Source: Sphaerodactylus townsendi
Lineage: Eukaryota
Direction of reading: 5' to 3'
Assembly (NCBI RefSeq): GCF_021028975.2
Contig: NC_059425.1
Span: 189,038,001 to 189,102,000 of the forward strand
Length of the DNA: 64,000 nucleotides
This document shows, piece by piece, positions 1,611 through 59,770 of this stretch (the first letter of the stretch is position 1; every line of letters starts with the position of its first letter). Under the pieces are notes generated by a model that did no database searches, had not been told where the DNA came from, and worked only from the letters and a program-made list of their open reading frames with translations. The translations under genes were made by a program, and so were the position numbers.

Positions 1611-1637
1611 TGATTACATAATAATAATAATAGCAAT

Positions 1638-3562: not shown

Positions 3563-3570
3563 ATCCAGAG

Positions 3571-3769
3571 CAGTGGTTCCCAAACTTATTTGGCCTACCG
3601 CCCCCTTTCCAGAAAAAATATTACTTAGCGCCCCCTGGAAATTAATTTTTTTAAAATTTTAATAGCAATTAAACAGATAGATATATGTTTCTACCTGTGG
3701 CCATCACCGCCCCGCTGGATCACTGCAGCACCCGCCAGGGGGCGGTAGCGCCCACTTTGGGAATCACTG
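3571..3769. mobile_element. hAT (Charlie-like) MITE
   Basis: TIR CAGTGGTTCCCAAA...TTTGGGAATCACTG; TSD ATCCAGAG/ATCCAAAG (7/8). Confidence 0.88.
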
Positions 3770-3783
3770 ATCCAAAGCTTCAG

Positions 3784-4540
3784 ATCATAGAATCATAGAG
3801 TTGGAAGGGGCCATACAGGCCATCCAGTCCTATCCCCTGCTCAGGCCAGGATCATCCTTGAGCATCCTAGACAAGTATTTGTCCAGGAGCAGCAGTGGCG
3901 TAGGAGGTTAAGAGCTCGTGTATCTAATCTGGAGGAACCGGGTTTATTCCCAGCTCTGCCACCTGAGCTGTGGAGGCTTCTCTGGGGAATTCAGATTAGC
4001 CTGTGCACTCCCACCCACGCCAGCTGGGTGACCTTGGGCTAGTCACAGCTTCTCGGAGCTCTCTCAGCCCCACCCACCTCACAGGGTGTTTGTTGTGAGG
4101 AGGGAAGGAAGGGAAAGTGATTGCAAGCCCCTTTGAGTCACCTTATAGGAGAGAAAGGGGNNNNNNNNNNNNNNNNNNNNNNNNNNNNNNNNNNNNNNNN
4201 NNNNNNNNNNNNNNNNNNNNNNNNNNNNNNNNNNNNNNNNNNNNNNNNNNNNNNNNNNNNNNNNNNNNNNNNNNNNNNNNNNNNNNNNNNNNNNNNNNNN
4301 NNNNNNNNNNNNNNNNNNNNNNNNNNNNNNNNNNNNNNNNNNNNNNNNNNNNNNNNNNNNNNNNNNNNNNNNNNNNNNNNNNNNNNNNNNNNNNNNNNNN
4401 NNNNNNNNNNNNNNNNNNACCAGCAAGTGATTTATTGCCTGACTGACAGGACCCCCCTCAATCTTCTCTTTTCGAGATGAAACATTCCTAAGTGCCCTCA
4501 TGTTTTCCTCACAGGGCTTGGTCTCCATATGGTCCTTAGT
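3784..4540 (-). mobile_element. CR1 3' fragment interrupted by a SINE and an N gap
   Basis: ATCATAGAATCATAGAGTTGGAAGGG is the reverse complement of the CR1 (TTCTATGA)n tail. CR1-like sequence resumes after the gap (CCCCCTCAATCTTCTCTTTTCGAG...CCTCACAGGGCTTGGTCTCC). Confidence 0.65.
3886..4160 (+). mobile_element. Squam3-like tRNA/CORE SINE
   Basis: tRNA-like head with A/B boxes and CORE GGGTGACCTTGGGCTAGTCAC; near-identical to copies at 20925, 39270 and 40168. Confidence 0.85.
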
Positions 4541-5491
4541 ATGCTGATGGCACCCCCAACTCTATACATCATTGAACAAATCTCTGGAAATTGTCACTTC
4601 CGTATTGGGACAGAGCTTAGATGTCATGGGCAGGTGGATGAGGAAAAACATGCCAATTCCACACAACACAGAGGTGATTTCCACTGACAATTCTGCTTCT
4701 AATTTTGTGTGGGACGAGAACCTTTTTTTTTTTTAACAGATTCAGTAAAAAGAACTGGTGTCCTACTGGACATCCTGCTGGAAAGACAAACAGTTGTGAT
4801 ATCAAAGACTGCAGAGTTTCAGTTGTAATTGTCATGGAAAGCGGCCTCTCTCCTAAACCACAGCTGACTTCGCTGCACGGGCCCATGCTGTGGTAATCTC
4901 CAGGCCTGGTTATTGTAACATGGTCTACATGCCCTTGAAGAGAAGAAGAAGAGTTTGTATTTATACCCCACCTTTCTCTCCTGTAAGGAGTCTTACGAAC
5001 TCCTTTCCCTTCCTCTCTCCACAACGGACACCTTGTGAGACAGGTGGGGCTGACAGAGTTCTGAATGAACTGTGACTTAAGTCCACAAACTGTGACTAGC
5101 CCCAACTCGGAAGACAACTCAGAAACGTCAACTGGTATAACATGCGAGCATCTTACTTTTGACCAGGGTAAATCATTTAGCCCATAAAAGCACTACACTG
5201 GTTACCTATTTGCTTCCTGGTTCAAACCAAGACGATGGCTTTCACTTCTCAATCCAGGACCCACAAGCTTAAAGGACTGTATCTTTCTGTAAGCCCCTAC
5301 ACTCAGCCCAGCAGGAACTTCTGATTGTCCTCTCTCTCCAGGTTGTCTCCTTTCTCCTGGTTCTGAGATTTTTGGGAGGCTGCCCTGTCGTTGTGGACCA
5401 GGCCTCCTGATTTTGACACCCAACTGGAAGGTAAGAGAAAACTTTCAAAATAAATACATTTCCTTATAGAATAATACAGAACTAAGCTGTG

Positions 5492-5850
5492 ACCTGGATG
5501 GCCCAGGCGAGTCCGATCTCATCAGATCTCAGAAGCTAAACAAGATTGGCCCCAGATAGGAGACCACCATGGGAGTCCAAGGTTGTTATGCCGAGGAGGA
5601 CTATGGCAAATTACCTTTGTTTTCTCCTGCCTAGATCTGGATGGCCCAAGCTAGCCCAATCTAAGCAGATGTTGGAAACTAAAGCAGGGTCAGGCCTGAT
5701 TAGTACTTGGATGAGAGATCACCAAGGGAGTCCAGGGTTATTATGCAGAGGAAGGCAATGGCAAACCACCTCTGAGCATCTCTGGTCTTCCAAACCTCAC
5801 CAGAGTTTGCCACAAGTCAGCTGCGACTTGACTGCACTTTCCACCATCAC
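5492..5850 (+). mobile_element. Two tandem 5S-derived SINE copies
   Basis: Two heads starting CTGGATGGCCCA (about 5494 and 5637) with 5S-like GATCTCAGAAGCTAA and TTAGTACTTGGATGAGAGA; the second ends in an RTE-like tail (GTCAGCTGCGACTTGAC). Confidence 0.75.
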
Positions 5851-6020
5851 AAGATAAGAAACAAAATGATGTCTGCAATTCTAAGGGCTGTAAACACCCA
5901 GGTAGTCACTTGATCATTTCCCTTCTGTAGCCAGTCATGGAAACAACTCATCTCATATGTTTATTGGGTATATGGATGTGTGTGCGTGCATGTGTGTGTA
6001 TGGAATCTAGGAACCTAGAC

Positions 6021-6133
6021 CCGTGGTGGCGAACCTTTGGCACTCCAGATGTTATGGCCAATGGCCATGCTGGCAGGGGCTGATGGGAATTGTAGTCCAT
6101 AACATCTGGAATGCCAAAGGTTCGCCACCACTG
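6021..6133. mobile_element. Short palindromic hAT MITE
   Basis: Long TIRs GTGGTGGCGAACCTTTGGCACTCCAGATGTTATGG; perfect TSD ACCTAGAC. Confidence 0.92.
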
Positions 6134-6694
6134 ACCTAGACAGTCGGAAGAACTAAGAGATGGGTGGAACTAGTTAGTGGGTTTGTCTGCTCCATCGCTT
6201 GGGATCTTGTTAACTTCCTGACAGAACTGACCCCCCTGAACTGACATTAGCACATTTTGATTATATCTTCTGCTCTCTTTGGTTCTGCCACATACCAAGG
6301 CTGTGAACCCCCCCCCCCCATGTTCTACTTTTGGACAGGCACAATTGCCCTTACAAAATATAGAGGGGTACAAATATGTGATACTTGACTGCCTGAATGG
6401 GTAGTTGTTGCTCTGACTCTATGGTTCCTGGAGAAGGAGGACAAGGTGAACTCAATAGTTCAAGCTACATCTAACTTACCGATTCCCAGTTTTACTCAAG
6501 TTGTAAGCAGAGGCACACTTTCCCCCCAACTCTGTGAAACGAAGAGGTATGGCACATATCTACAGATGTGTCGACTTTGGGAACAACAATTATCTGCAAG
6601 GCCATTTTGAAGTCTGAATAAAAGCAGCTCCCAGAAAGGTCTTCCTTGGGATTCTGGGTTGCCATAGGAATAAGATGCAAGTTCCTTAACTCAC

Positions 6695-6766
6695 CTCCAG
6701 ATGCCTTTGACCTTTCTTTCAACTTTTCTGCAGCCATTTCACTGTAGCTAGGAAGTTCTGACATCT
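6695..6766 (-). CDS. EHBP1: EHBP1 internal coding exon (3' part visible; 5' part hidden in N gap 6767-6962)
   Basis: The minus strand reads AG ATG TCA GAA CTT CCT AGC TAC AGT GAA ATG GCT GCA GAA AAG TTG AAA GAA AGG TCA AAG GCA TCT GGA G|GTGAGT, i.e. (K)MSELPSYSEMAAEKLKERSKASG. This matches human EHBP1 VKMSELPSYGEMAAEKLKERSKASG as recalled. It ends in a strong phase-1 donor, GAG|GTGAGT. Confidence 0.93.
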
Positions 6767-7339
6767 NNNNNNNNNNNNNNNNNNNNNNNNNNNNNNNNNN
6801 NNNNNNNNNNNNNNNNNNNNNNNNNNNNNNNNNNNNNNNNNNNNNNNNNNNNNNNNNNNNNNNNNNNNNNNNNNNNNNNNNNNNNNNNNNNNNNNNNNNN
6901 NNNNNNNNNNNNNNNNNNNNNNNNNNNNNNNNNNNNNNNNNNNNNNNNNNNNNNNNNNNNNNAAGCTCCATATCAGCGGGGTGTCAACAACACAATTTCG
7001 ACAGCCATCCAGGAACACGGTCTGCCCCCCCCTCCCAAAAAATTATTGTATTAAACAGGTTTTTAAAAATACAGTCTGAGGCTGATAGCTACCCCAAATT
7101 TAGGGCCACAGTAGCACACAGTATGTTTAAGACCAACATTCAAAGTACTAATGTGGGGGCAAAAGCAGGCGGAGACAGCCAAGTTCCAAAAAGGAAGAAT
7201 TGCACTACTTCAAGAGGGCTGGCCGAAAATTCCAAGGTCATTCGGCAACCAAATGAAATACTATCAACCACACCTTTGCATAGCAAATTCCAATCAAACA
7301 CTTACTGATTGCTTCCCCACCTGGGGACATGACAATTTA

Positions 7340-7497
7340 TACACCACTAAAACATTCCCTTCTCACTGGACACAGTGTGTAACAGACTTCTCTCTGTGAT
7401 ACACCTCTGAAGGTGCCAGCCACATATGCAGGCGAAATGTTAGGGACAAGATCCACCAGACCACGGCCACACAGCCCGGAAAACCCACCGCAACCAA
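7340..7497 (+). mobile_element. Penelope-like element pLTR fragment with degenerate hammerhead motif (7404-7444)
   Basis: CCT-CTGAAGG-TGCC...GGC-GAAA-TGTT-AGG followed by GACCACGGCCACACAGCCCGGAAAACCCACC; same family as 57942-58075. Confidence 0.78.
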
Positions 7498-8223
7498 TAC
7501 GCTAAACTGGTTTTTTAAAAATCTAATTAAAGTTAGTTAAGCAGAGATCTAAAGTGAATGAAAGCTATCAATTATAAGACATTTCCTGTTCAGAAGAGCA
7601 AAAGCATTTCCTAATTTTAAAATGTTTTTGTTTTGGAATAACCACTGGACAGAATAACAGAGCAACCTTAAGTAGGTCTTCTCAGGACTCTTCCGTGGGG
7701 CTTACTCCCAGGAAAGTGTGTTTCAGATTGTGCTGTTTGTACACAAACTATCAGTCTGTAATAAAGAGAATTTTCTGAAAAGCCTATCCTCAAAGTTAAA
7801 TCGTCAGGACCTGATTAATCCTCCAGGGCTAGAAACCATTGGGCAACTCCATATGAACTTCTTTCCTCCACGAAGGAAAGATTGGATAAAAATCTAACGA
7901 ACTAATAATAGATGTGGCAATGGAAATGTGCAAAGGTTAGCATTTCACAACAGGTTCCATTTCTCTGAGAGCTGTGGGAAGATGCGAGCAACCATTTTGA
8001 CATCCACTCTAACAGGCAGCTGATGTAATGCGTGGTAAAAATTAACTCTTGGCTGAAGGATACAGGAAGCTCACATCAATTACCAAACTATCACTGTTTG
8101 GTTTTAACTTTTTCACCCTGGAACACCCTGGAAGAGCATTTTATCACACTTCCGGTGCCAATATGGGCTAAAAATGTGGTACAATATACAGGAAAATGCT
8201 TTAGTACCCATCAAGACAACCAG

Positions 8224-8680
8224 TTTATTATTATTTATTATTTGTTTAATTTAATATACCGCCCTATCCCTGAAGGGCTCAGGGTGGTGTACAGCATAAA
8301 AACATCATACATAAAATCATCACAAAATTATTACCATAAATACAATTAAAACAACAGTTAATTCCCATGAAAACCTTGCTTAAACCCTCCCCAGAAATAT
8401 ACATATATATAATGGGTCCCGATAGTATGAGGGACCCATATGGGGCAAAGAGGAGGAGCAGGGGCAGGGGGCACCCTCAGCGGCTGGTCTCTCCAAAGGC
8501 CCGGTGGAACAACTCAGTCTTACAGGCCCTGCGGAATTCTCCAAGGTCCTGCAGGGCCCGGACAGCTGGAGGGAGAGTGTTCCACCAGGCCGGCGCCAGA
8601 GCCGTAAAGGCCCTAGCCCAAGTAGAGGCCAACCGCATCATTGAGGGGCCAGGGACTTCTAGTAAGTTGGCCTCTTACCA
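8224..8680 (-). mobile_element. L2 LINE 3' end
   Basis: The minus strand encodes RAFTALAPAWWNTLPPAVRALQDLGEFRRACKTELF (L2 ORF2 C-terminus) and ends in an AT-rich tail. Confidence 0.85.
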
Positions 8681-8793
8681 CGTGTTTATCTGTATGCCAT
8701 AGATGGGTGTGTTCCAAGGTGGTAAGAGTCAGATACCGGAGAAAGAGAAGGAATTTGCTGACATATCCCAAACGCATAGAAGCCATATAGTAA

Positions 8794-8968
8794 GACAAAA
8801 ATCCTGCGGTGTCTTAAACACTAATAAAGTTTATTTTAGTAAAAACACTAATAAAGTTTAATTTAGTATAAACTTTATGGAGTCAGCCTTGGCTGGAATA
8901 AACTTTGTCAATCGTTAAGGTGCCACTGGACTTGTTTTATTTTGATGCAACAGACTAACATGGCTACA
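8794..8968. mobile_element. Penelope-derived inverted pLTR remnant
   Basis: Ends TAAGGTGCCACTGGACTTGTTTTATTTTGATGCAACAGACTAACATGGCTAC, typical of reptile Penelope pLTRs; internal tandem duplication of AAACACTAATAAAGTTTA. Confidence 0.6.
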
Positions 8969-9199
8969 GAGAAGGTGTGCCCTTTAATTTTACTTTATGA
9001 CAAAATCCAGATAAGGCTATGCGATTTTGAATCCAACTTAAATCAACCAGACTAATACATGCTTGCAGGTGCTACCAAGTAAGGTCTAGTTATCGCAAAA
9101 AGTAGCTCAGGTAGTAAACGGTACCATTTGAATGATCTATATAATTTCTGACCTCAGGTGGGAAGGTCACATAACTGCATGTTTTCCCTTTACACAGGA

Positions 9200-9701
9200 C
9201 AGTGATGGCGAACCTTTTCGAGACAGAGTGCCTAAATTGCAACCCAAAACCCACTTATTTATTGCAAAGTGTCAACACGGCAATTTAACCTGAATGCTGA
9301 GGTTTTAGTTTAGAAAAAACAGTTGGCTCTGAGGCATGCGTTACTCGGGAGTAAGCTTTGTGGTAGTCGGTGGCTTTGCTTTGAAGCAACCGTGCAACTC
9401 TTCCAATGGGTGAATCACGACCTACTCAGAAGCAAGCCCTATCGACAGCAACCGAGCTTACTACTGGGTAAAGGATTGTGCTTTAATTCTTCACATGAAA
9501 ATCAGTGGAGTTTAACAACGCTTAACAGGGCTACCTACACTGCTTCCCCAAAAGTAGGTCTTAGGTTTAATGCTAATAATTGATCCCAGCGGCCCAGGCC
9601 AGCCTTGATGTGTGGGGGAGGGGGGCGACTGTTTGCGTGTGCCCACAGAGAGGGCTCTGAGTGCCACCTCTGGCACCCGTGCCATAGGTTCGCCACCACT
9701 G
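9200..9701. mobile_element. hAT MITE, ~500-bp family (copy 1)
   Basis: TIR CAGTGATGGCGAACCT...AGGTTCGCCACCACTG; TSD ACACAGGA/ACATAGGA. Four copies occur in the window. Confidence 0.92.
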
Positions 9702-10294
9702 ACATAGGATTTTATTTTCTCATGATGACCCAGTAGGGTTACAAAAACTGAGTCCAGCATGCACTACCTCAAACAATACAACAATACAACAAACCGTTGA
9801 ACTCAAGCTGATGTGAATTAAATATTCTTTACTATTATTTCAGTTTATCGTCTTATTTCATTTCATATATCTTCATATTTCAGACATAAATCCAAATGTT
9901 ATAATTCATAATTCATATAGGATATCCATCCATATTTCATAATTCCAAACTCATAATTCATAGGAACCAAATTCCATTTTTTCGTTCTCCATACACCGGA
10001 GAATATATGGTCTATTTCATCACTGTTCAGTTTTTGGCAGTCCACTTGAATATCGTATCTAAGCAAACAAAGGAAACGCTTTGCGCATAAGTCGTGTTTT
10101 TCGACAACTTCTTCAGCAATATATGCTAATATATCTAATTTTTATAGGCTTCCTACGGGTAATCTGAAAATAAATCCAGAAAATGTGTACATCAGTCATT
10201 GTTTCTAGAATATATGGTGTTCAATGACAGTTATATTGAAAGAAATGGGTTCTTCAATACTTTCAATTTTATGTTGATGTTATGTTGATTGTAA

Positions 10295-10560
10295 AGCAAC
10301 GGTGGAGAGGGAAAGCCATGAAATTATAGGACTGTTAGCCTGATGCTTATTGCAGATAAATTGGAGAGAGTATTAAGAAAGATAGAATTATTAAGGATGC
10401 TGAGCAAGCCAACCTAGGAAGATCAGCAACGTCTTGACCTCTGGTAATTTTTGAGTATTATTAAGTAGCAATAGCAAGCTGGTAGGCCAGATACATGTGG
10501 ACTTCAAAAACTTCTGATGAAGTCCCTCACCAAAACACTTAGCGCCTCTCACAAACTAGT
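10295..10560 (+). mobile_element. Old CR1 reverse transcriptase fragment
   Basis: Remnants of NYRPVSL (AATTATAGGACTGTTAGCCTG) and DFxKAFDKVPH (GACTTCAAAAACTTCTGATGAAGTCCCTCAC). Confidence 0.6.
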
Positions 10561-10597
10561 GACCCGTTCTGTTTGCTACCATTATATCACCCTACTT

Positions 10598-11173
10598 CAG
10601 TGGTGGGATCCAAAAATTTTAGTAACAGGTTCCCATGGTGGTGGGATTCAAACAGTGGCGGCTGGGCGGGGCATGATGGGGGCGTGGCCAGGCATTCCGG
10701 GGGCGGGGCATTAATAATTTCTCTGTTACTGTAAAAAACTCTTACTGTAAAAAAAAAGTTCCTAATTTCTAGCTGGTGTCTTTCTGTCCATAATTTAAAC
10801 TCATTATAGCAAGTCCTATCATCTATTGCCAACAGAAACAACTACTTCTCCTCTAATTGACTGCCTGTCAAATACTTAATACTTTCAAATACTTAATATT
10901 GTTTCTAGAAATCAAAAGAAGGATACTTTCCTTAAACAAGGAACTTTACCATATGTCTAAAACATGTTTTTAAAACAGCCCAACAGGGAGAATTATCCCG
11001 TTTTCTACCTTCGCTAACCAGCCACATAGGAAACAACAGGACTGTATGATTTTTGGACCTAATGGAATTTCTAACGGAAAAGCAGACCCAATTAGTAACC
11101 CCTTCTTGGCACACACAAATAATTAGTAACCCACTCTTGGGAACTGGTGAGAACCTGCTGGATCCCACCTCTG
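10598..11173. mobile_element. hAT MITE (same ends as 229-617)
   Basis: TIR CAGTGGTGGGATCC...GGATCCCACCTCTG; perfect TSD CCCTACTT. Confidence 0.92.
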
Positions 11174-11249
11174 CCCTACTTATGCAGCACTCTGAAGCTG
11201 CCAAGTATTCTGTTATGTGGACAGTGATGGGCAAGATACAACCAAGTTC

Positions 11250-11450
11250 TAAGGCTGCCTACCTCTGTGTGACACCTGGAGATCTCCTGGAATTTCAGTT
11301 GTTGTCCAGACTACAGAGATCAGTTCTCCTGGCGAAAATGGTTGCTTTGGAGGGTGGACCCCACGGCCCACTTGTTCCTTGCTGAGCTCCCCACCCAGGT
11401 TCTACCCCCAAATCTCCAGGACTTTCTCAACCTGGAGTTGGCAACTCTAC
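11250..11450. mobile_element. Old non-autonomous DNA element (GTTGCCAAC termini); related copy at about 34725-34932
   Basis: The two copies share body sequence (CCAGACT...GAGAAAATG...CTCCAG...CAAC) and TTGGCAAC-type ends. Confidence 0.55.
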
Positions 11451-37720: not shown

Positions 37721-38349
37721 TTTAGGGCCATTGTTAAGACAATCTGGAGAGCTGCAGGTTGCAGACCCTGTTCCAGAGGGGGGGGATCTCCCAAGGGAGT
37801 GCCACCTGGAGTCTGGTATTATCTAGATTGGTGTACATTACAAATAATGACAACTTGCTGGGGAAGAATGAATTGTGTTAAAATATATATATATAAATTA
37901 GAGCCAGAGGCGGTATCTTGTTAAAAGAAAGGAAAAGAACCTGTCCTGGCTCTGAGTGCTTGCAGGAAATGCCTAACACAGTATTCTATTTTAATGAAAA
38001 TGAATTCAAACATCGAGCTATACCAGGAACCAACAACTCTTAATCAACAACATATTATGCACAACAACTTTAACAACACAACGAACAATGCTATACACAC
38101 AGAGAGGATCCTGCAAATATAATAATATAATATTAAAGTCTCTGCTGTAGATGGAGTAAGAGATCCCACTCAATGACGGCTTGAGAAGGATACCAATGTC
38201 TGATGTCTTTAAAAACTCAACTTCAAGAATTAGCTGTCCAGTGCTTTAAAATCTGCAGTTTCCTAGCCTCTGTGATCATATTCAGAGATTTGAGTAAGGC
38301 TGTTTCTCTTGGAGTGCAGACCTAGCCAGCAGACCAGGGTGCTTTCCTG

Positions 38350-38503
38350 CAGCAGCAGCAGCAGAAGTGCCATTATGCTTTCACATCCTGCAGTAAATGT
38401 GTGAGCTCTCTAAAGGCACCTGCTGGGCCACTCCGAGTAGCAGAGGAAGTGCTGGACTAGATGGACTCTGGTCAGATCCAGCAGGCTAGTTCTTACGTTC
38501 TTA
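38350..38503 (+). mobile_element. CR1 3' UTR fragment
   Basis: GCTGGACTAGATGGACTCTGGTCAGATCCAGCAGGCTAGTTCTTACGTTCTTA; reverse complement of the 30553 and 51350 copies. Confidence 0.8.
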
Positions 38504-39269
38504 CTTTGAGGGGGTTTTTTTACATTCTTCTCAACTTCCCTTTTTTTGCGTAACTCATTTGTTCCAATGAGATTCCTATACAATGAAATCCAGATGCTTT
38601 CTTGTTATCCTGGGAGAGAAAAGATGTGTATCTCCTGACTCTCACCTGTCGACCTTATGCTAAATACCCACCTGTCGAAGCAGCACAGCTTGAAAGCTTC
38701 ATTTTATCTCCCCAGAACTAAAACGAAGCTGTGTGCAAGGATAGTGTTGTGCTAATCACTTTTGTCCAACCATATTTCAGTTCTACAGTGTAAGCTTGTA
38801 TACAAACTTTTATTTATTTTGTTAATTTTACATTTGTTTTTGGTAAATTGTATATACCTGTATCTTTCAAGGTGGGACCATTACAGTTCTAAAGATTCTT
38901 ACAGGTCATCGATAGAAACAGTCAAATTTTACTTGTTTGGCGTGCTGCTAGATTGGAGCAAGTAGATAAGCTCTATCAGCTTTAGATAGTATCACTCATG
39001 CGTATGCCCTAACTTTCCGAAAAGTAACCTGCTTGACTGAGTAACTCCAAATTTTCAATTGAAAACACTTGGATTTAAGTAGACTAAGGTTGTAATCCAA
39101 TACTCACTTGGGAGTAAGTCCCTCTTAAATAAAGGGGGGACTTGCTTCTGAATCGTCATTCAGAAGAGTACACTGTTAATTTGCCTAGCAATTCCACTTA
39201 ATTTTATTGCAGATCAATTAATTGCATTCAAAAAGCATAATCCTGTGCAGACATACACTGTTCATTTTT

Positions 39270-39573
39270 AGGAGCAGCAGTGGCATAGTGGTTAAGAGCA
39301 GGTGCATTCTAATCTGGAGGAACCAGGTTTGATTCCCCCCCTCTGCCGTTTGAGCTGCGGAGGCTTATGTGGGGAATTCAGATTAGCCTGTGCACTCCCC
39401 CACACGCCAGCTGGGTGACCTTGGGCTAGTCACAGCTTCTCGGAGCTCTCTCAGCCCCACCAACGTCACAGGATGCTTGTTGTGAGGGGGGGAAGGGCAA
39501 GGAGATTGTCAGCCCCTTTGAGTCTCCTACAGAAGAGAAGCGGGGGGATATAAATCCAACTCTTCTTCTTCTT
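39270..39573 (+). mobile_element. Squam3-like SINE, full length
   Basis: A box TGGCATAGTGG, B box GGTTTGATTCC, CORE motif and (TCT)n tail. Confidence 0.88.
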
Positions 39574-40167
39574 CTACATACAGAGGAGGAGATTGTGAAT
39601 GCTAAGTACACACACTCCAACAACGAGGAAATCAATGGAACATCAAAATTCAACCTTTGCTGTAGTCTTCACATAATGTTGAAGGCTACAGAAAATCTGC
39701 AAACACAATGTGACATCTTTAATTTCTTCAGCTAAGGCAGGGTATTTTTTTTTCCTGTCAGGAATGCCTCCTTAGACTGCCTAGTTAACACATTCCAAGT
39801 AATTACTTTGATTTTGTTTTGTTTTGCTTCAATCTGCTTTGAAGAAGCATATTTTCATTTACTGAGAGAGCAAAGAATGTTTGTTGAATGTGACCGACAG
39901 CTGACACTCCATGGGGTTGTGAAGGTTTTTGCTGAACCTCATTATTACATCATCAATTATGTCAGCATGTGACAGAACATTGATAGTTTAGTTGAACTAA
40001 AATTATATTCATTTAACATCTTCCGATAAACAATTAAAAGTTTAAACCCAAACCATTGAAGGTAATAAAACATTTTCCTTTTGGTGGCGAGTAATCAGCA
40101 GAATGTGAAGGGCAAGCAAAAAAAAAAAAAGGATACAGGACAATCCTATGGTGGGGGCTCAATCTTC

Positions 40168-40463
40168 CAGCAGTGGCGTAGGAGGTTAAGAGCTCATGTA
40201 TCTAATCTGGAGGAACCGGGTTTGATTCCCAGCTCTGCCGCCTGAGCGTGGAGGCTGATCTGGGGAATTCAGATTAGCCTGTACACTCCCACACACGCCA
40301 GCTGGGTGACCTTGGCTAGTCACAGCTTCTCGGAGCTCTCTCAGCCCACCTACCTCACAGTGTGTTTGTTGTGAGGGGAAAGGGCTTGGAGATTGTCAGC
40401 CCCTTTGAGTCTCCTGCAGGAGAGAAAGGGGGATATAAATCCAAACTCTTCTTCTTCTTCTTC
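40168..40463 (+). mobile_element. Squam3-like SINE, full length
   Basis: Near-identical to the 3886 copy; (TCT)n tail. Confidence 0.88.
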
Positions 40464-40577
40464 AATCTTGTTGTGGGCCCATAGCTTTAAAAGCGTTCTC
40501 CCTGTTTCAATTTAAATTGTTACCTCTTGGACTAAAGCTAATTTACACCTTGATCTCATCTATTACATGCTCTTAGC

Positions 40578-40912
40578 CAGAGGTGACTGCCGAACTGGTA
40601 ACTAATCGCTGGAATCCCACCAGGGCGACTGCATGTCGGGCCGCGCTGCCAGCCCAGAGGCGCTGCGGCCCGATCAGCAGCCGGCCGGCCGAGCCACCGG
40701 CCGCCCCTACATCCATCCCCCCTCAGCAGCCACCTTCCCTTGCCTCACCCCTCGCCTCCCTCACCCCACCCCTCACCTCTTCCCTCGCCTCACCCCTGCC
40801 CAACATCGGAAAGAGGGCACAGCACAGCCGCCAGGCTGACCAAGTGGAGCAGTGGGGGCACGCAGCTGAGGCGGAGCGAACCGCTGGCTAGAATTTTAGA
40901 ATCCCACCACTG
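40578..40912. mobile_element. GC-rich hAT MITE
   Basis: CAGAGGTG...GAATCCCACCACTG; TSD CTCTTAGC/CTCATAGC (7/8). Confidence 0.75.
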
Positions 40913-41139
40913 CTCATAGCCTTTACTTACATGAGATTTGCATTTTCACACTTTTAAGGTTTGGTGTACTAGTCTCGTAAACTTCCATTGAGAGCCAGCA
41001 CGATATCGTGATTAGAATGTTGGACTAAAATGTGGGAGATCCAAGTTCAGATACCGGCTCTGCCATGGAAAATCACGGGATGACCTTGGGCCAGTCCCAC
41101 ACTTCCCTCCGCACCGACCTCACAGAGTTGTAGGGATCC

Positions 41140-42790
41140 AAGTGGGCCGCATTATGACAATTCAACATCTCCCAGTCCCACTTTATGCCATCATGTGGCC
41201 TTGTGTGCGCCCAGACCTATTTGCCTCCGAATGGTATCAACTTCTTAAATCAAAAATCTACTCTCTGGGTTTAATATTTGAAGATCTCTGTATGTTCTCA
41301 CCCAGAGAGATTCTGCAAACCTTAAAAAGCAGACTTCTAGAACAGGAATACCATATCTTGTTGGGCCAAGCAAATAAATCATGCTCACCCCTTTCTGTTG
41401 GATAGCCAAATATCTTGAACTATTAACTGAACCCCAACAGAGATGGATTATTACAAGGGCCAGGTGCAATACTTTTCCATCGGCCATTACAAAGGGTCGC
41501 TACCTATCTATCCCTCTCCAGGATCGGGTCTGTCCACACTGTAAAAACCAAGTGGAGACTCTTGCTCACATTATACTTGACTGTCCGAGATATGTGGGTA
41601 TTAGGAATTTCTCTCCTGGGCGGGTCTTAGACAAATCTGAAAGAGACTCTGACAACTCTGTTGTGGAGCTTTTGTTAAATAACACAGAGGCCGTGCTCTT
41701 GGAAAAAGTAGCAAAATTTCTTTTACAAGTGACAGAATTTTCTAAGTAACGTCCAGTGCTAGATACAGTTTACCGTATATACTCATGTACAAGTCGAATT
41801 TTTCAGCACATTTTTAATGCTGAAAAAGCTCCCCTCGACTTATATGCGGGTCATTAAATTTTTGTGTGTGTTTTTACTTTGCTGGCCAGCAGGGGGCGCA
41901 GTTTTTATGCTAGCGACACCAAATTTTCAGGGTACCCTCAGAAGACACTCCTGATGATACCAGCCAAGTTTGGTGAAGTTTGGTTCAGGGGGTCCAACGT
42001 TATGGACCCCCAAAGGAGGTGCCCCATTCTCCATTGTTTTCAATGGGAGCTATTAGTAGATGGGGCTACCCATTTGAGGGACCATAACTTTGGACCCTCT
42101 GAACCAAACTTCACCAAACCTGGCTGGTCTCATCAGGAGAGTCTCTTTATGATACCAGCCAGGTTTGGTGAAGTTTGGGTCAGGGGATCCAAAGTTATTG
42201 ATCCCCAAAAGGGTGCCCCATGCCCCATTGTTTACAATGGAAGCTAATAGTAGATTTTCCATTTCTGATAATATCCCTCTTAAAATCTAAGTTGGGTTAC
42301 ATTTGGACATACAGATGATGATGAAGAATCCAGTTTTGAAGGATTTTAACTCTTGTGTTTTAGCTTGGTTGCTGATTGAGCTAAGGTTTTTGTACTTTTA
42401 AAGTTATTGTTGATACCATATTGTTTTTGTTGACCGTCTTTTCCACTTACAGAGCCAGTTTACTGTTTTTCTTTGAAATAAATATTCAAAAACATTTAAC
42501 CTACTGATGCCTCAATTGATGTAATTTTATTGGTATCTATTTTTATTTTTGAAATTTACCAGCAGCTGCTGCATTTCCCACCCTCGACTTATACACGAGT
42601 CAATAAGTTTTCCCAGTTTTTTGTGGTAAAATTAGGTGCCTTGACTTATATGCAGGTTGACTTATACACGAGTATATACGGTATCTATCTGTGTTTTGAA
42701 TGTACTTTTGATTTGAACTTCAGAAATGTCTGTAATGCTCTGGAGCCTATTTTAATATGCCTAATAAAGGTTGTTGTATTGTATTGTATG
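41140..42790 (+). mobile_element. RTE-X-like LINE 3' end, split by a Tc2-like MITE
   Basis: ORF 41381-41749 contains RVCPHC...VETLAHIILDCPRY, a CCHC zinc knuckle. The tail TGCCTAATAAAGGTTGTT(GTATT)n lies at 42758-42790. Confidence 0.75.
41773..42681. mobile_element. Tc1/mariner-superfamily (Tc2-like) non-autonomous element
   Basis: TA TSD; TIR CCGTATATACTCATGTACAAGTCGA...TTGACTTATACACGAGTATATACGG. Confidence 0.9.
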
Positions 42791-42960
42791 TGTCCTTCTT
42801 GCCTCAGGATTTTGAAATTTTTTGGATGCTGGAGATCGCCGCAAGGCTCAAACAAATGAGACGAAAATTGTCATCTAGTTCTGTAGAGGAACCCAAGCAG
42901 ATTTCAGGCTCTTGCAGCCTCAGTTTGCCTCAACGTAGGGAAGGGAAAGAAGATTTAACC

Positions 42961-43287
42961 TATGGTGACCAGTCGTCTGATTTCGTGTGGGACACTCACA
43001 CTTTCGCGTGAGTGTCCCGCGTCCCTCTCAGAGCTTATGCCATTGTCCCAATTAGGGGACAATGGCTCGCAGTGACACTGCCTTTTATGCGGTGGCGCTC
43101 CCCAGTCAGGAAACAGGGAAGGCCCCAGAAGGCACTCGCGGCCGCAGTGCCTTCTGGGACGCTTCCCCTGTTTCCTGACTGGGAAGCTTGCGCTGCCGCA
43201 GTGCAAGCAGTGCAGTGTGTTTGCCAAGTGGTGTGCGCTTATGCGCTCTCGCTTTTTTTTTCATTGGAAAAATCTGGTCACTCTTTA
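42961..43287. mobile_element. hAT (Blackjack-like) MITE
   Basis: TATGGTGACCAG...CTGGTCACTCTTTA; perfect TSD ATTTAACC. Confidence 0.8.
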
Positions 43288-45221
43288 ATTTAACCCTTTG
43301 GTGTCCATAGTGATGCTTACATTTGTGCCAGATCTGAAGCTCCTCTGCTTTGTTGTTACTTTATTGTAAAGGAAAAACAATGTTCTTGCTGTCTGCCTTG
43401 TTTCTCAGTGACTTGCCTTAGAGTTGCCACTCTATCTCTTTTGTGGAGCTCCCTTTATTGCCTAGGCAGCTGTCCTTGCCCCCTGCTGAGCTGTCCCCTG
43501 CTCATACCTGCAACCCTGAATTCTCTGGGCATAGAGGACCAACAGCACCTCGTATTGAATTTAACTGAAGTTAATTGGTGGACGGGAGCTGAGGGCTCCA
43601 TGTGACAGAAATGGTTGGTATATGGAAGATTGCAAAAAAATCTTTGTACACCCCATCTTAGGTTTAAGACCGGGCCCTTAAGGGAAAAAAAATAAAGGTA
43701 CAAAATGCTGATTGCTTTTTTAGAGAACAGGGAAACAAAACTTTTTTTTTAAAAAAAGGATTTCAACTATTACCATTTTTCTGTTTCCTCTTTCACTTTC
43801 ATCTGCAAGAACTTTTTTGACAAGACCTTTTGCTTCATGCCAAAATCCAGTCCATTAGGAATACACCCAAGTATTAACACTTTAAAACAACAACAACAAT
43901 AGACATTCTTCTATTTGGCCAATTATTTGGCATTGTGTGTCTGCAGTGCTGAAGGCTATACCTAATTAGATACTATCTTTTTGCCTTTAATGTGTGAGGG
44001 TTTATTTATGTAATCGCACCTTTATATTTGTCTAATAGTCAGTGATAAAAATGCTGGAATGACCTTTGCTGCTGTACTTCCCATGTTGTAATGACTGTAA
44101 TGCTCTTCTCCCACGAAGTTCTAGAAGCATAAATCAAAAATATATAGGGTTGACATGTTTTAATTGCTTAGCACTGGCATGCTTTTTTTAGTCAAAGTGG
44201 GGCATCACGTTGGCCTTCTTCCCAAGTAGAAGCAGTCTTGAGGAAGGACGGTTTCTTTGCAAACTTGTACTGTTGAGAACCAAGATAAGCAGTTTGTGAG
44301 GGTGTATTTTAACCTTGATTGTGGCATTCCTTGGCGTCAGCTTTGGCATTTTGGGGAATGTATATACCCAAAATATTTTCAAGAAACCAAATAACCGTGT
44401 AAGTCTATGATTTAGTTTTTTCCACAATAGGTAGCGGATTTGAGATTTTTTGGACGGCGTTCCCATTCTGTGCGAAAGCTCTTTCCTATTTAAGTACCTT
44501 GCAAGAAAACACTCCTCATCCTCCCTCCTCCGCAACATAAAAAACAAACAAAAAAAACTGGTTAAGAAATATTTTGTGCAAAGCGAGCCAAGGAGACTTG
44601 TCTTCTTTGTGGAATACACAAAGCTGAAAGAGCAAAATTGCCGGCATGTTTTGTAAAGTCCAGCTTTATCTGCTAATAAAATCCGGCTTGCTTGTAAATT
44701 GTTCCATTTTTATAGTTATCTCGACTCTTTGTTCTCGTAGTGTGGCTTCCGAAGGCGCTAGGATCCCACCTTCTGGCCCACACTGCTTTTGGAGAACTGG
44801 GAAGCCGTCTCTTGTTGCCATGGAGTGTTGGAATCAAAGGAAGCATAAGCATAAATTACCGGCTACACAGCAATAGGCCTTTAAAAGTCTTGTAAAAGCA
44901 CTTTTATTTTACTTGCCTCTCTCAAGATAGTTCTTGGCCTGTTATTCTGTGTGTGTATGGGCTGGAGATCTTGCTGCCTCCACATCCTTGGGAGACAAGT
45001 GCCCAAAGGCTAAGTCTGTACATAATGACTTGAGGAATGTGTGTGTCTTTTTCCAAGTTGTAGTGATTGTCAGAACTGACAGGCTGGGTAAGAAGGAATC
45101 TCTCTCTAACTGACACTCAAAGGATGCAGAATCATCTAGTTAGGAGTCAATTAAATGTTAATAATTTGTCTCCCATGAAATTCTTTAATGCTTTTTCTTT
45201 TCTTTTCTCTGATTTTTCCAG

Positions 45222-45405
45222 CCAAGCCCAATACCAAGTCCTGTTTTGGGGAGGAAGCCAAATGCCAGTCAGTCATTGCTTGCTTGGTGCAAAGAAGTTA
45301 CAAAACTACAGGAGTGAGAAATCCTGCAAATTTCCACTACCATCCTGGCCGTGGAGATGGATTATCTTTCTGTGCAATATTACACCACTTTAGGCCGGAT
45401 TTGAT
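45222..45405 (+). CDS. EHBP1: EHBP1 exon encoding the start of the CH domain (contains frameshifting indels, probably sequencing errors)
   Basis: Long polypyrimidine tract and TTTTTCCAG acceptor, then PSPIPSPVLGRKPNASQSLLAWCKEVTK...GLSFCAILHHFRPDL across frame changes. GT at 45406. Observed length is 184 nt versus 179 nt implied by the recalled human peptide. Confidence 0.93.
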
Positions 45406-46132
45406 GTATAAAAGTAAGAAATACGGGTCCCGTTGCTGCACTGGAAACTGGTTGCTCATTATTGCTGAAATTGAACATCCAACTTTACAAATCCAAGCTT
45501 GATTTCTGGGAAGAGCGCCCGTGGTTTTCCCATTTTTTAAAATGTCAGCCATCCCACGAGAGGGAGCAGAAATCCAGGATACATGCCCCATACTGTGGTC
45601 CCTACTGTTTCTACCCTCTGCTCTGAGTCCCCTTTCCTCTTTTCAGCCGTATTTTTTCTTCTGAACCCTCGTGACAAAGTAATAGGCTCCAAGGTTATTA
45701 TGAAAATTGTAAGCTAGGTTGAAATGAGATGAAGGCCCACTAAGCCAGAGTAGCTCTTTTTGTGCAATGACAACGGAGGATTACCTGCGTAGCCAAATGT
45801 GTAGTTGTCAGAGTTACCTTCAAGTACCCCTGCCTTGTGGGTCCCTGCCTTTTGAGGATGAAAAGCTTCAGGCAAGGAAAAGATGCGAGGCTGTGTATTT
45901 ATATATATATTTTTGATCGAGTTAACTTTTAATTTTCCACACTGGTTAGTTTTGCGTTGATTGCATTGCTGCAATATTTCTAATTCCTGTATGATGCTGT
46001 TTTATGTTGAGTTTCTGTTCCCCCCACCCCACCCCCACCCTGGATAGGGATATGGATTCTTTTTTTTTTAACTTGCTGCTTTTTATCAAGAATCCATGTC
46101 CATACTCAATGCGGTGCCGTTTCCTTCCCCAG

Positions 46133-46183
46133 TGATTACAAGTCCCTGAATCCTCTAAAGGATATTAAAGAGAACAACAAAAG
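46133..46183 (+). CDS. EHBP1: EHBP1 small CH-domain exon (contains indels)
   Basis: TTCCTTCCCCAG|T GAT TAC AAG TCC CTG AAT CCT CTA AAG GAT ATT AAA GAG AAC AAC AAA AG|GTAGG reads DYKSLNP(LK)DIKENNK(K), versus recalled human DYKSLNPQDIKENNKK. The phase-2 entry matches the previous exon. Confidence 0.92.
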
Positions 46184-46959
46184 GTAGGAACTGGTGAGGG
46201 GAGGCAGAGATTGCTTTGATTTTGGATCGCTGCAGGTTTTATTAATTTGAATGATATGAGGAATTGGCGGGTAAGGTCACTTCTAATCGTAGATCATGAA
46301 GAAGGTTTTGGAGTCTCCCGTGGCTCAAATTCTGGATACCTTATTGACTCTAGTTTGTTGTGGTTCTTTAACAGTTCACAAGAAGTGCCATATTGGCATT
46401 AGGGCCGTGGAGGAAGGAACCTTTTACATCTCCAGATATGGACTCATAGTTCTCATCAGCCCCTGCCTAATGTAAAGCCATGCTGGCAGGGAGCTGATGG
46501 GAGATTGTAGTCCATAACATATTGGAGTGCCAAAGGTTCGCCACCACAGCATTAGGGTTTAATGTTTATATCACTTGTGCAGCCCTCATCTCACTGGTCT
46601 AGATCTAACCTAATCCTCATCGAAGCTCGAAAGCTGGGCAGGCAAATGGGTCTCGAAAGTTAGTATTTGAATGAGAGACCACCCAGGAAGAACAAGTGAG
46701 CTGGCTTTGTACCCCACTTTTTCTACCTTTAAGGAGTCTTATAATCGCTTTCTCTCGATTTCCCACAACAGACCCCTTGTAGAGGCAGGTTGGAGCTGAG
46801 GAAGAGTCCTGAAAAGGAAGGAACTATGAGCCCTAGCCCAAGGCCCCAAAGCAGAGCTTCCCTCGCGTAGGACAGGGAAACAAATCCGGTCCACCAAGAT
46901 TACTGTCTGCTGCTCACGTGGAAGTGCGATGCAGGAGATCCACCCCAGTTTTCCAGATT

Positions 46960-47448
46960 ATTATTTTCTATTTTTTTTTGTTATTATTTATTAGGCTTTT
47001 GATAAACCGCCCGAACCCCCGAAGTTCTCCGGGCGAATGTACAATGAGACCATAAAACAGATAAGCAATATAAAGGTCTCATAAATACAATATAGCTGTA
47101 TAAAACATGAAAATACATGAAAAATACATGATAGCAGCAATTCCTAAAAAATTTCAGATGATAAAGAAATACATGTACACAGATATTGCAAATGCACAGA
47201 ATGGCGTAACCAAAAGCGGCCAGGAGGGCCAGCATTGCCCAAAGAATGGATGGAATCAGCAATCCAGGCCGAGGTGCTTTTAGAGATGGCAAAACTGTCG
47301 TGGGGGCTTCCAGAGGGGGCAGGCGGCGTCCTGCGTGCTGGCATCCCCAAAGGCCCTGAGTGGAAGATAACTTCGGTCTTACAGGAGCCCTCTGCGAAAG
47401 GAGACTTCGGGCCAAGGTCCCGCTTAAGGGCCCGGACAGCAGAATGAA
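46960..47448 (-). mobile_element. L2 3' end inserted in a minus-strand Squam3-like SINE (about 46700-47605)
   Basis: TTTGATAAACCGCCC...GGGCGAATGTACAA L2-type terminus; SINE sequence lies on both sides, with AGATTA at each junction. Confidence 0.6.
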
Positions 47449-47702
47449 GTAAAGATTAGAGGTTCACCGCTCAGCTGTAGAGGAGCAGGGAAACAAACCC
47501 AGTTCACCAGATTAGCATCCACGAGCTCGTGTGGAGGAGTGGGGGATCAACCCCAGTCTCCAGATTAGAGTCCAATCCGCTTCATTACACCACTACACCA
47601 CGCTGGATGCCTTGCCCAGGGTTGCTCCATGAAGGAAGTCAAGTATGGCAAACCACCTCTGAACGCATCACCTTGCCAGAAACCCCTTCCAGGTCCCACA
47701 AG

Positions 47703-48005
47703 GGCCCTTTCCCCACTTACCGTTTGCGGCGCGCTACTCTCAGCCCAGCGAAGTCATTTCTAAAATTCCGCTGGGATTAGGAAATGTTCCCCACTGCCCC
47801 GCTACGCTTCTGCTTGGAGTCACTCAAAAGGTGCCGCTTTTTTTCAGCGCCAGAAATGACGCTGCCAGCTGGAGGGGACGCTGAGCGGCAGAGTCAAGGC
47901 CCGACTGCGTTGTCGCCAGCCGGACTTTCGTGGGGAGTGCCGCTGGACCCCGCGCTATTTGGGGAGAGTAGCCGGCGCAGCAAGCGGGTAAGTGGGGAAA
48001 GGGCC
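47703..48005. mobile_element. CpG-rich Harbinger-type MITE inside a Sauria-type SINE tail
   Basis: TIR GGCCCTTTCCCCACTTACC...GGTAAGTGGGGAAAGGGCC. The flanks rejoin as GGCAAACCACCTCTG...GTCAGCTGTGACTAGACGG. Confidence 0.85.
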
Positions 48006-51000
48006 AAAGGAGTCAGCTGTGACTAGACGGTTAATTTTCCACCAGCAGCCTTTGTCAACTGTGAAAGCGAGAACGAAAAGGAAAAGCGGGAGAGTCTTTG
48101 GTGAAGTCATCCTATTTTGGTCTTAATAATTTAATTATCAGCACAGTGTGTCATTGTTCTATAATTATCTTGCTTCGAGGCTCAGCGTGGCCACTACTTT
48201 AATGTGAAAGATCTCATGGTTGCAGTTATAATAGGCGCCGGCGATAGTATTTATTCAAGAAAGAGAGAGACGCAGAGATAAAACTTCACATGGACTTTTT
48301 TATCCGGATTGCAGTCAATTAGATTCTGAACCGGGCAGCCATAAGGTGCATTGAGTTTTTTACATTATGCAGAGCGATTGGGAAAAAAAATTTGTTGTAA
48401 GAAGTTTTTGTTTTAAAGAAGATGACAAAAATATTGCTAATGGAAAAATAACCAGTTGGATGGCATTCCAGGCCCAGGTTTTTTAATCCTTAATAAAATT
48501 AGGTAATCTAATACTCTTCGATGTAAAAGGTTATAAAGGGACATTCTAAAATGAGTTTTGTGATTTGAGGCTCCATCTAACAATACCAAGGATACACTTT
48601 GGTTCTTAATGCTGCCTCCCCTACAAAAGTCTTCTTACTTGCTGCAGTTGCAAACTTCTAATTTCCATAGCAAGAGTCAAGTTCGTTGGCCCTAGAGGGA
48701 TCCGCTTTTAAAATTGCTCATTTTCCACTTGATTAGCCTACAACTAAAACTCTCTGCAAATCAAAGCTCTAATTTTGTTTTATTGGGTGCTTTTTTCACA
48801 TCTAGGCAGTGTGGGACTTCATAATTTCAGAATGGATCTCCTTTGTATTTCCAGTTTATGGAAATTTAAGATAATGCATGCGGAGGGATTAAATGTCACT
48901 CCTTTAAAATGCTCCCTGTCTCTGTAGGTGAGGAAACAAATACAATTCATTAGAGAATCCTACGAAGCATCTAAGAGGAGGAAGTGTGAAATAACGTAGA
49001 TTCTCGGTATGGATCTGAAATCTTGCACCTAAATCGTAATGTTCAAACCACATGCGGGCAGCTTATTGAGGGGAAGTTGGCTGGTATTTATATGTCCTTC
49101 CTCCCCGAACACGAGAGGAAGTGTCAAAAAATAACACCCCTTGTTCTCGTTGCTGTAGCAAAGCAAAGTGTAGAAAGATTTTGCTACGCTGGAAAAGAAG
49201 AGTAGAAGAATGTGCTCTCAGAGCAGATGCTTTGCCTTCTTTTTTGGGAAATTATCCATTAAGCCATTTGCAGTGACCCTAAGAGGGATTATCTGTGACA
49301 TCCACACTGAGTTTCCTTGTATTGCGGCGTGTTTAACTTCAAAATCATACTGCAAACGATGCAGAGCTAATCCAAGACATGACTTCTAAAGGCCCTTTGC
49401 AGGAACTATAAAGGAACTAATCAGAAGCATGATTATAAGCCACTGCAAATAGAAGTTTGATTTTTTTTCCCGAACAAATGCTGTTAAATGTACAACCCAA
49501 TTAAGGCCATTTTTTATTTTCTTTAAAAGATGGTGACCAAGGGTGGGAAGGGAATTATCGTACGAAACTGAGTTTCAGCCGGTTTCTTTAATAGGGACTC
49601 TAATTTGGATCATTCCTTTTATTAAAGAAGCAATTTGTTGTATGCCGAGCCGTGTTTTTTCGCCTTTCATCACTTCTTGCAACTCTTGGCCTGAAGCAGC
49701 TACGCTGGAAGTATCCTCAGTTAGCTTCCTGCAGATTTGTTTCCTAGAAGCTCCACACAGTTCTGCCCGATAACCCCATAGTGCCCTTGAGTTGGGAATT
49801 GAGCACAGCCCTAGGCCCAACAAGTGTCGCCAAGTATAAATTCCATGCAGATGTATATAGCACATTTGGAAACCAATGACTCCTGGCCTGACCAATTAAA
49901 ACTCCATCCATGGATGCATAAGACCTCTTTTGTCCAGTTCTGTCCTGGTAAAATTGATGGGGATGAGGAAGTAAAATGAAAAAAAACGGAGAGAACCTGA
50001 AGATTTAGCTTTGTAAGCATTAGCAGCTTGTACAAAAGGCGCACCTTCGGAAGCATTAGGAGAGATTTTGCTCCACCGAAGCGGATTTTCTCCTCACTGA
50101 ATCACATACATTTGGCTGAAAGTTCTGAAAATTACAGATCATAAACTCCAGTGGGGGGGGGGGGTTGTTTGCCATCCCCAGGTGGCTCCTTAAATTTTTC
50201 CTATTTTGCTTGAAAACTGCAATTGAAGGGGTAGGGGTGGAGAGGAGATATTTACCTTTGACATCTGACCTTGGCCAATATGTCAGCTAAAACAATAGAG
50301 GGGTGGGGTTTAGGAGAATACAGCGGTGATGGTTTTGTTGGCGGATCAAGCGATTGATGCCTCGTCAGTCATTTAGCCAGAGTGGTGGCCGGTGTTCATT
50401 TTTTCAGTTGTTAATTAAGCTAGCGGGTTATGAGTAGGGAATAGAAAGACAAAATTTGTGTACCTGCAAAGGTAGTTTTCTGCTCTTCTGCTTGTAACTC
50501 GCCTCTTAAGGAGTTTAAAAAGGATTCTTGCATTAAAGAACATTTTTTTTAATTTCACAAGTGCGGGATGGGCATTAAAAGATTCAGTCCCTCCTACATT
50601 ACTTCCATTTGACTTGTCCATAATATATATGGAGCCTTAGGATTAGATTAGGTGTTTTTCGGCGTTTATGTCTCCTTCTGTAACACACATTGTAATGTCT
50701 GTATGAATATAAATATTTTAATATTAAGTCCTGTCTTAATGGGATAATGGAGTAAGAGGCAAATGAAAACAGGCACTGACTTCGGCATATATATTTTTTA
50801 ACTTCTCAGACTTCCCTAAAGTGCAGCAAAACAGGACTCCGCTTATAGCTTCCTCACCTGCCATTTCTTGGAAGGGCATGAGATAGTTTTTCTGTGAAGA
50901 TTTTACTTAAGTGCTAAAGCTATGATATTATCGCACTGGCAGCCATTTGGTCTGAAAGTTCCTTTTCATAAAAAAATGGAACAAAGTTATATTTAAAATC

Positions 51001-59769: not shown

Positions 59770-59770
59770 C

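What the first reader, a model, noticed from the sequence alone, without database searches (positions are those of the whole stretch)
6695..46183. EHBP1 exons are out of order and on opposite strands
Seen: CH-domain exons on + at 45-46 kb, and the MSELPSY...KASG exon on - at 6.7 kb. Known (recalled): in EHBP1 the latter lies several hundred residues downstream of the CH domain. The intervening exons (AYDGFAS... and HRLLSRQEEL...) were not found in the window. Inference: the left block is inverted and displaced relative to the right block. The likeliest cause is a scaffolding error at the triple gap 19989-20681, with the gaps at 6767 and 36254 as alternatives. A real intragenic inversion would disrupt EHBP1 and rearrange putative OTX1 enhancers, which would be remarkable.
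Basis: partly seen in the sequence, partly recalled or inferred. Interest (0 to 1): 0.7.

Follow-up and report, generated by a model that had tools for sequence, protein, structure and literature searches.

The report
False inverted duplicate inside gecko EHBP1
The out-of-order EHBP1 exons belong to a second, backwards, error-riddled copy of a 65-kb piece of the gene that is likely a genome-assembly artefact, while a complete EHBP1 lies in normal order on the other strand.

Summary
In detail: CH-domain exons lie on + at 45.2-46.2 kb and a later EHBP1 exon on - at 6.7 kb. The gene is not inverted or broken. All its exons found, from residue 1 to the C-terminus, lie in order on -, with an Otx gene downstream. 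Window 20,682 to 88,246 (running past the window's end) is an extra mirror copy of 88,339-152,653, bounded by N runs of 92-95 bases at all three junctions. Its four exon copies carry 41 indels, 39 frameshifting; the right-arm exons are open. The arms differ by 1.4 indel events per substitution, against 0.15 for repeat pairs nearby. In two public runs one contig covers 2,293 left-arm bases with 2,066 letters, and the right arm has 2,065 there; no laid contig shows the left-arm version. Verdict: very likely a false duplication, a redundant low-accuracy contig scaffolded backwards beside the good one.

The parts
1..20586 (-). Single-copy part of the true EHBP1 gene (intron sequence and one exon), in correct orientation
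   Evidence: No long second copy in 464 kb; its exon is collinear with all other - strand exons; repeat copies here show 0.49 insertions per 100 bases, the normal level
6690..6764 (-). Visible part of the EHBP1 exon named in the finding (P0004 residues 890-914)
   Evidence: tblastn 96%; in G000 the match covers residues 864-918 at window 6,678-6,842
6767..6962 (.). N run over the first part of that exon; not a breakpoint
   Evidence: The protein match in G000 continues across it
20587..20681 (.). 95-base N run: outer junction of the inverted extra copy, likely a scaffold gap
   Evidence: Arm alignment starts at 20,682, at a TCT microsatellite; the other two junctions are 92-base N runs beside microsatellites. 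Gap or mask cannot be told directly
20682..64000 (+). Left arm: inverted, insertion-rich extra copy of the EHBP1 segment at 152,653-88,339 (arm continues to 88,246, past the window)
   Evidence: 61,789 matches, 1,731 substitutions, 1,990 left-only and 393 right-only gap events
36254..36383 (.). N run inside the left arm; not a breakpoint
   Evidence: Alignment to the right arm resumes on the same diagonal (36,246/137,679 then 36,384/137,632)
45219..45405 (+). Frameshifted copy of the first CH-domain exon
   Evidence: 10 indels against the open right-arm exon, 9 not multiples of three, counted with 12-base flanks; DNA contigs and RNA reads differ from it
46133..46184 (+). Frameshifted copy of the short second CH-domain exon
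   Evidence: 4 indels, all frameshifting; 3 RNA reads of organism B join 45,405 to 46,133, GT..AG
51349..51528 (.). Retroposon-like repeat fragment present only in the left arm, interleaved with right-arm letters
   Evidence: About 81% to many copies in the region, with extra letters; absent from the right arm

Best explanation
The + strand block is an inverted second copy of a 65-kb, four-exon segment of EHBP1 and is likely a false duplication: a redundant, poorly polished contig of the same locus, probably the other haplotype, that scaffolding likely placed backwards beside the good contig. Shown: the mirror geometry; N runs at all three junctions; an intact collinear gene on - once the left arm is skipped; insertion-dominated damage concentrated in the left arm; public contigs that fit the right arm's length and gap count and not the left arm. 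Inferred: (1) the assembler kept two versions of one locus, both ending at the same two microsatellites; (2) the scaffolder put them side by side because they share the same neighbours, and orientation was arbitrary; (3) polishing reads went mostly to the better copy, leaving the other as a blended consensus with about 10% extra letters and clean islands. In the animal, the sequence at 88,339 would follow 20,586 across one unresolved microsatellite gap.
For: Geometry: 20,682-88,246 aligns end to end, inverted, to 152,653-88,347; N runs of 95, 92 and 92 bases sit at the three junctions, each beside a microsatellite. The 400 kb of fetched flank holds only three N runs (92, 92, 84), all at structural junctions. 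Gene: the - strand matches run in order from residue 1 (C1:189,396,511) to 1,242 (C1:188,946,076); only the four-exon block is doubled. An NCBI model on a contig of the same length (P0003, 1,188 aa, no X) is 91% identical to Euleptes EHBP1. Error spectrum: 2,383 gap events against 1,731 substitutions (ratio 1.38), control 0.148 over 228 repeat pairs outside the arms. Third copies of repeats of 179 scorable left-only gaps spurious, 43 real, 17 unclear. Insertions per 100 bases against outside repeat copies: left arm 2.63, right arm 0.74, other zones 0.45-1.07. Stretches of 1,569 and 1,869 identical bases alternate with 500-base bins holding 50-70 extra letters. At 85,023-85,358 a repeat fragment is interleaved with GGAT units where the right arm has pure GGAT, as a blended consensus would be. 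Reads: in X1 and X2 one contig covers 43,537-45,829 with 2,066 letters and 239 gaps; the right arm there is 2,065 long with 239 left-only bases; all 40 listed substitutions are at full depth in at least one run. The best of 16 holders has 0.25 of the words of 41,000-47,500, and only 0.28 of those words are shared with the right arm, so no indexed run holds the left-arm version.
Against: Reads were laid on only 3.5 kb of the 67.6-kb arm, and not on the right arm itself; the fit to the right arm rests on length, gap totals and the word ceiling. Column-by-column agreement of read letters with the right arm was 7 to 24 of 37 depending on alignment scoring, so it is inconclusive. The runs are coded (organisms A, B) and need not be the assembled animal or species; contigs drop rare variants. 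A depth control on single-copy flank could not be obtained, so an identical collapsed duplicate is excluded only weakly. The N runs may be masks. The right arm also has error patches (23 of 54 scorable right-only gaps look spurious). The left arm holds two repeat fragments that the right lacks and 268 isolated substitutions with ts/tv 2.15; this fits a second haplotype but also real divergence.
Confidence: 0.8

Rival explanations
1. Artefact of another origin: a fold-back (palindromic) long-read chimera, one molecule read out and back, was assembled as a 132-kb palindrome.
For: Perfect mirror symmetry about one point, with both outer ends at the same site; one arm much worse than the other; A/G differences exceed C/T differences on one strand, 595 to 352, as single-strand read errors might give. 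Ko et al. mention false palindromic sequence of raw-read length (PMC9516828, passage).
Against: The centre is an N run and all ends stop at microsatellites, which suggests contig ends. The left arm has two repeat insertions and allele-like substitutions that the right lacks, which one molecule cannot supply. The palindromes in that paper were 7-17 kb, not 65 kb per arm. The strand asymmetry could also come from transcription-linked mutation in an intron (recalled, not tested).
Confidence: 0.12
2. A real inverted tandem duplication of 65 kb inside an EHBP1 intron, private to the assembled animal or lineage, whose extra copy was also badly polished.
For: Two copies are in the assembly; left-only repeat fragments and 268 isolated substitutions could be post-duplication change; the gene would still splice correctly on -, so an intact protein model does not exclude it; no flank depth control.
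Against: N runs at all three junctions; indel-to-substitution ratio nine times the local control; one contig only in each of X1, X2 and X4 at the laid site, at depths (28.4, 63.4, 28-30) within the range of other contigs in the same runs, e.g. 36.4 for a 2,691-base contig from elsewhere in X4 (the tool warns that depth is no copy number); no run holds more words than the right arm explains.
Confidence: 0.06
3. A real intragenic inversion that disrupts EHBP1, or a plain flipped contig without duplication.
For: Within the 64-kb window alone the exons are on opposite strands and out of order.
Against: Every exon found has an open copy in order on -; the + exons are extras; a full-length model exists.
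Confidence: 0.01

Closest known systems
False duplications in genome assemblies, heterotype and homotype (Ko et al. 2022, PMC9516828; 12 of 24 matching passages read)
   Same: Second copy on the same scaffold, separated by a gap, rich in erroneous words, giving a partial extra gene copy; the paper reports 7 to 24% of false duplications on the same scaffold in older assemblies and a partial NPNT-like false gene as an example.
   Different: Here the copy is inverted into a 132-kb palindrome; the word 'inver' had 0 hits in that paper's main text. Heterotype versus homotype could not be decided without the assembled animal's reads.
EHBP1 (NT-C2, CH, bMERB) of geckos, e.g. P0003 and Euleptes europaea P0004
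   Same: Same domain set, 91% identity, same exon order, Otx gene 3' on the same strand (that this is the human EHBP1-OTX1 arrangement is recalled).
   Different: Nothing at the protein level; the assembly holds an extra broken copy of four exons in one intron.
True inverted segmental duplications (fold-back type; recalled class, not looked up)
   Same: Head-to-head mirror geometry.
   Different: True ones are contiguous, read-supported and diverge mainly by substitutions; this one has N at every junction, no read support where tested and indel-dominated differences.

Membership tests
False duplication (Ko et al. 2022) | Half or very low read support on the duplicate | tested here: met
   No laid contig carries the left-arm version over 43,537-45,829 in X1, X2, X4; best word share 0.25 against a ceiling of 0.28 for right-arm-only DNA. 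Tested on 3.5-6.5 kb, in runs not known to be the assembled animal.
False duplication (Ko et al. 2022) | Gap between the duplicated pair on the same scaffold | tested here: met
   92-base N run at the centre, 95 and 92 at the outer ends. That these are assembly gaps and not masks is inferred from their coincidence with all three breakpoints.
False duplication (Ko et al. 2022) | Excess of erroneous sequence in the duplicate | tested here: met
   2.63 insertions per 100 bases against 0.45-1.07 elsewhere; 39 frameshifting indels in four exon copies.
False duplication (Ko et al. 2022) | Discordant or spanning read pairs across the junctions | not testable with these tools
False duplication, heterotype | Haploid-specific (single-copy) k-mers on both copies | not testable with these tools
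   Needs the assembled animal's reads. Indirect only: 268 isolated substitutions, ts/tv 2.15, third copies side with right 16 and left 13; two left-only repeat fragments.
True segmental duplication | Both copies supported by reads | tested here: not met
   One version only at the laid site.
True segmental duplication | Divergence dominated by substitutions, as in neighbouring repeats | tested here: not met
   Ratio of gap events to substitutions 1.38 against 0.148.
True segmental duplication | Doubled depth over the segment relative to single-copy flank | tested here: inconclusive
   No flank control obtained; arm contig depths lie within the range of other contigs of the same runs.
EHBP1 (the - strand gene) | NT-C2, CH and bMERB domains in order in one reading | tested here: met
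   Pfam on P0003; exon order.
Intragenic inversion | Exons missing from the gene's strand and present only on the other | tested here: not met
   All four exons have open - strand copies.

The most novel reading that the evidence does not exclude
A real 65-kb fold-back duplication sits inside an EHBP1 intron of this gecko. The pre-mRNA would then carry 65-kb inverted arms able to pair around four coding exons, and everything 5' of the join would lie 67 kb further from the Otx gene, yet the gene would still splice normally.
Probability: 0.05. Interest if true: 0.5.

Novelty: not a real feature. Interest (0 to 1): 0.08.

Why it matters
As biology it most likely does not: EHBP1 is whole and in order. 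The practical value is as a warning for this assembly. About 67 kb here is probably redundant, reads will split between the arms, distances between EHBP1 introns and the Otx gene are inflated, and frameshifts or odd structures in similar insertion-rich stretches of this genome should be checked for a better second copy nearby before being read as gene loss or rearrangement.

Tried and rejected
(1) The N runs at 6,767 and 36,254 as breakpoints: rejected. (2) A complete second EHBP1 elsewhere: none among 37 scored matches of a genome-wide search that used a stricter first look; the only other multi-exon locus is a 54-83% paralogue at C1:25.9 Mb. (3) Pfam NT-C2 search of G000 missed the EHBP1 exons (1 match, on C12); the protein search found them. 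(4) Column-by-column comparison of read letters with the right arm: 10 of 40 (3 of the 40 are X1-only variants where both arms agree with X2), 7-24 of 37 over 22 alignments; it depends on gap placement and is not used as support. (5) A/G versus C/T strand asymmetry (113 to 70 isolated, p = 0.002): ambiguous, not used as support. (6) Flank depth control: not obtained, so copy number by depth stays open. (7) PDB sequence search failed on a stop codon in the query and was not needed. (8) No RNA holder was listed among indexed runs. (9) Literature: EHBP1 + duplication + reptile gave 0 papers; some searches were seen as search listings only, apart from PMC9516828 (passages; its supplements were not opened). 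(10) The claim about OTX1 enhancers was not tested: no relatives' genomes are held for this window.
Full report
Coordinates are window coordinates, continued beyond the window as contig position minus 189,038,000; the window is G000:C1:189,038,001-189,102,000.

1. The observation. The exon on - at 6,764-6,690 and the CH-domain exons on + at 45.2 and 46.1 kb are present. The + CH exon does not read in one frame. A DNA search of the own genome with it gave 2 matches: itself and a 92% copy on - at about 129,100. The two copies differed by 361 gap columns and 92 mismatches in 3,547.

2. Anatomy. A self-comparison of 464 kb (200 kb either side of the window) shows one large mirror: 20,682-88,246 aligns inverted, end to end, to 152,653-88,347. 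The centre is a 92-base N run between mirror-image AGGT/ACCT microsatellites. The outer ends stop at a TCT/GAA microsatellite beside N runs of 95 and 92 bases. In the 400 kb fetched there are only three N runs, of 92, 92 and 84 bases; two are these junctions and the third ends another probably flipped block. N may be a mask or a gap; the coincidence with every breakpoint makes gaps likely (inference). The N runs at 6,767 and 36,254 are not breakpoints.

3. The gene. A search with the open large exon of the right arm returned EHBP1 proteins; the best three (99%) are named by their source as Sphaerodactylus townsendi and lie on a contig of the same length as C1. P0003 has 1,188 residues, no X, NT-C2, CH and bMERB domains, and is 91% identical to Euleptes europaea P0004. 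tblastn places the - strand exons in strict order at 204,962, 203,349, 200,963, 199,924, 192,725, 173,892, 129,294, 128,430, 107,938, 99,174, 6,764, -12,755, -25,494, -28,699, -29,010, -32,974, -77,403, -79,108, -91,343 and -91,835. The genome-wide search adds residues 1-36 and 54-86 further right on - and finds no other EHBP1 copy among 37 scored matches. An Otx-family exon follows on - at -108,794 to -109,810 ('OTX1' rests on recalled synteny). The only + strand matches are the copies in the left arm. So the gene is whole; the left arm is an extra.

4. Which arm is wrong. With 12-base flanks, the four left-arm exon copies carry 10, 4, 18 and 9 indels (39 of 41 frameshifting) and 37 substitutions; each right-arm exon has a frame without stops. 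Over the arms there are 61,789 matches, 1,731 substitutions, 1,990 left-only gaps (3,579 bases) and 393 right-only gaps (734 bases). The ratio of gap events to substitutions is 1.38, against 0.148 in 228 repeat pairs outside the arms. Where three or more outside repeat copies cover a gap, 119 of 179 left-only gaps are absent from them, 43 present, 17 unclear; for right-only gaps 23, 23 and 8 of 54, so the right arm has error patches too. Against the best outside copy, repeats in the left arm have 2.63 insertions per 100 bases, those in the right arm 0.74, the other four zones 0.45-1.07, with similar substitution rates. The damage is patchy: identical runs of 1,569 and 1,869 bases at 81.3-85.0 kb, and 50-70 extra letters per 500 bases over much of 43-57 kb. 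At 85,023-85,358 a repeat fragment is shot through with GGAT units where the right arm has plain GGAT, and at 51,349-51,528 a fragment of the same family is interleaved with right-arm letters. This is what a consensus blended from two unlike templates looks like (inference), and it hints that the left arm is the other haplotype, with two retroposon insertions. It could also be read as real divergence.

5. Independent reads. The run search with 41,000-47,500 listed 21 runs, 16 holding part of it, the best with 0.25 of its words. Only 0.28 of those words also occur in the right arm, so 0.25 is what DNA with the right-arm version alone would give. Laid on 43,500-47,000, runs X1 and X2 (organism A, two samples) each gave one contig covering 43,537-45,829 with 2,066 letters, 239 gaps and 44-46 other letters; X4 (organism B) gave two shorter contigs, also gap-rich. 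The right arm over that interval is 2,065 long with 239 left-only bases. RNA reads of organism B differ from the window's CH exon copy (7 of 7 reads at five listed places, 5 of 7 at two), and 3 reads splice it to the short exon.

6. Mechanism. Most likely (0.8) a redundant, low-accuracy contig of the same locus was kept and scaffolded backwards beside the good one. A fold-back read chimera (0.12) is the other artefact route; together about 0.92 for artefact. A real inverted duplication keeps about 0.06, and a real gene-breaking inversion is excluded.

7. Known kinds. Ko et al. 2022 (PMC9516828; 12 passages read) list as marks of false duplications low or half read depth, a gap between the pair on one scaffold, discordant pairs and single-copy k-mers, and report more erroneous k-mers in them. 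Low support, the gap and the error excess are met here; the other two could not be tested. A search for EHBP1, duplication and reptile found 0 papers. The scan has no note near this locus; one note elsewhere in this genome also suspects garbling by sequencing error (not checked).

8. Verdict. Not a real feature, with high probability; interest 0.08.

Noticed in passing
G000:C1:189,190,746-189,207,863 (L011:8746 to L013:5863; continued window coordinates 152,746-169,863): A 17-kb block between N runs of 92 and 84 bases whose first 63 bases are the exact reverse complement of the 63 bases after the second N run; those 63 bases occur at only these two places in G000. Likely a contig placed backwards; it holds no EHBP1 exon, so the gene model is unaffected.
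   Followed up: partly
G000:C1:188,912,582-188,927,582 (L030:4582 to L031:9582): A 15-kb array of a 16-base G-rich unit, 99.7% uniform, about 600 bases 3' of the last Otx coding exon. Its uniformity suggests a consensus artefact or an unresolved satellite.
   Followed up: no
L023:21-6356: A 2.5-kb direct repeat pair at 83.6% with 193 gap openings and 159 mismatches: the same indel-dominated signature, perhaps another uncollapsed piece.
   Followed up: no
window 60,400-61,000: A repeat whose best copies elsewhere in G000 span about 545 bases for this 601-base query, while many others, including the right-arm copy (594 bases, 82%), span 575-600. Insertion-inflated stretches may be common in this assembly.
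   Followed up: no
G000:C1:25,881,136-25,932,400: A multi-exon EHBP1 paralogue on -, 54-83% identical per exon; probably EHBP1L1 (name recalled).
   Followed up: no
window 19,989-20,519: Two N runs of 252 and 251 bases around a 28-base island, just left of the breakpoint; their nature cannot be told and they are not needed to explain the structure.
   Followed up: no
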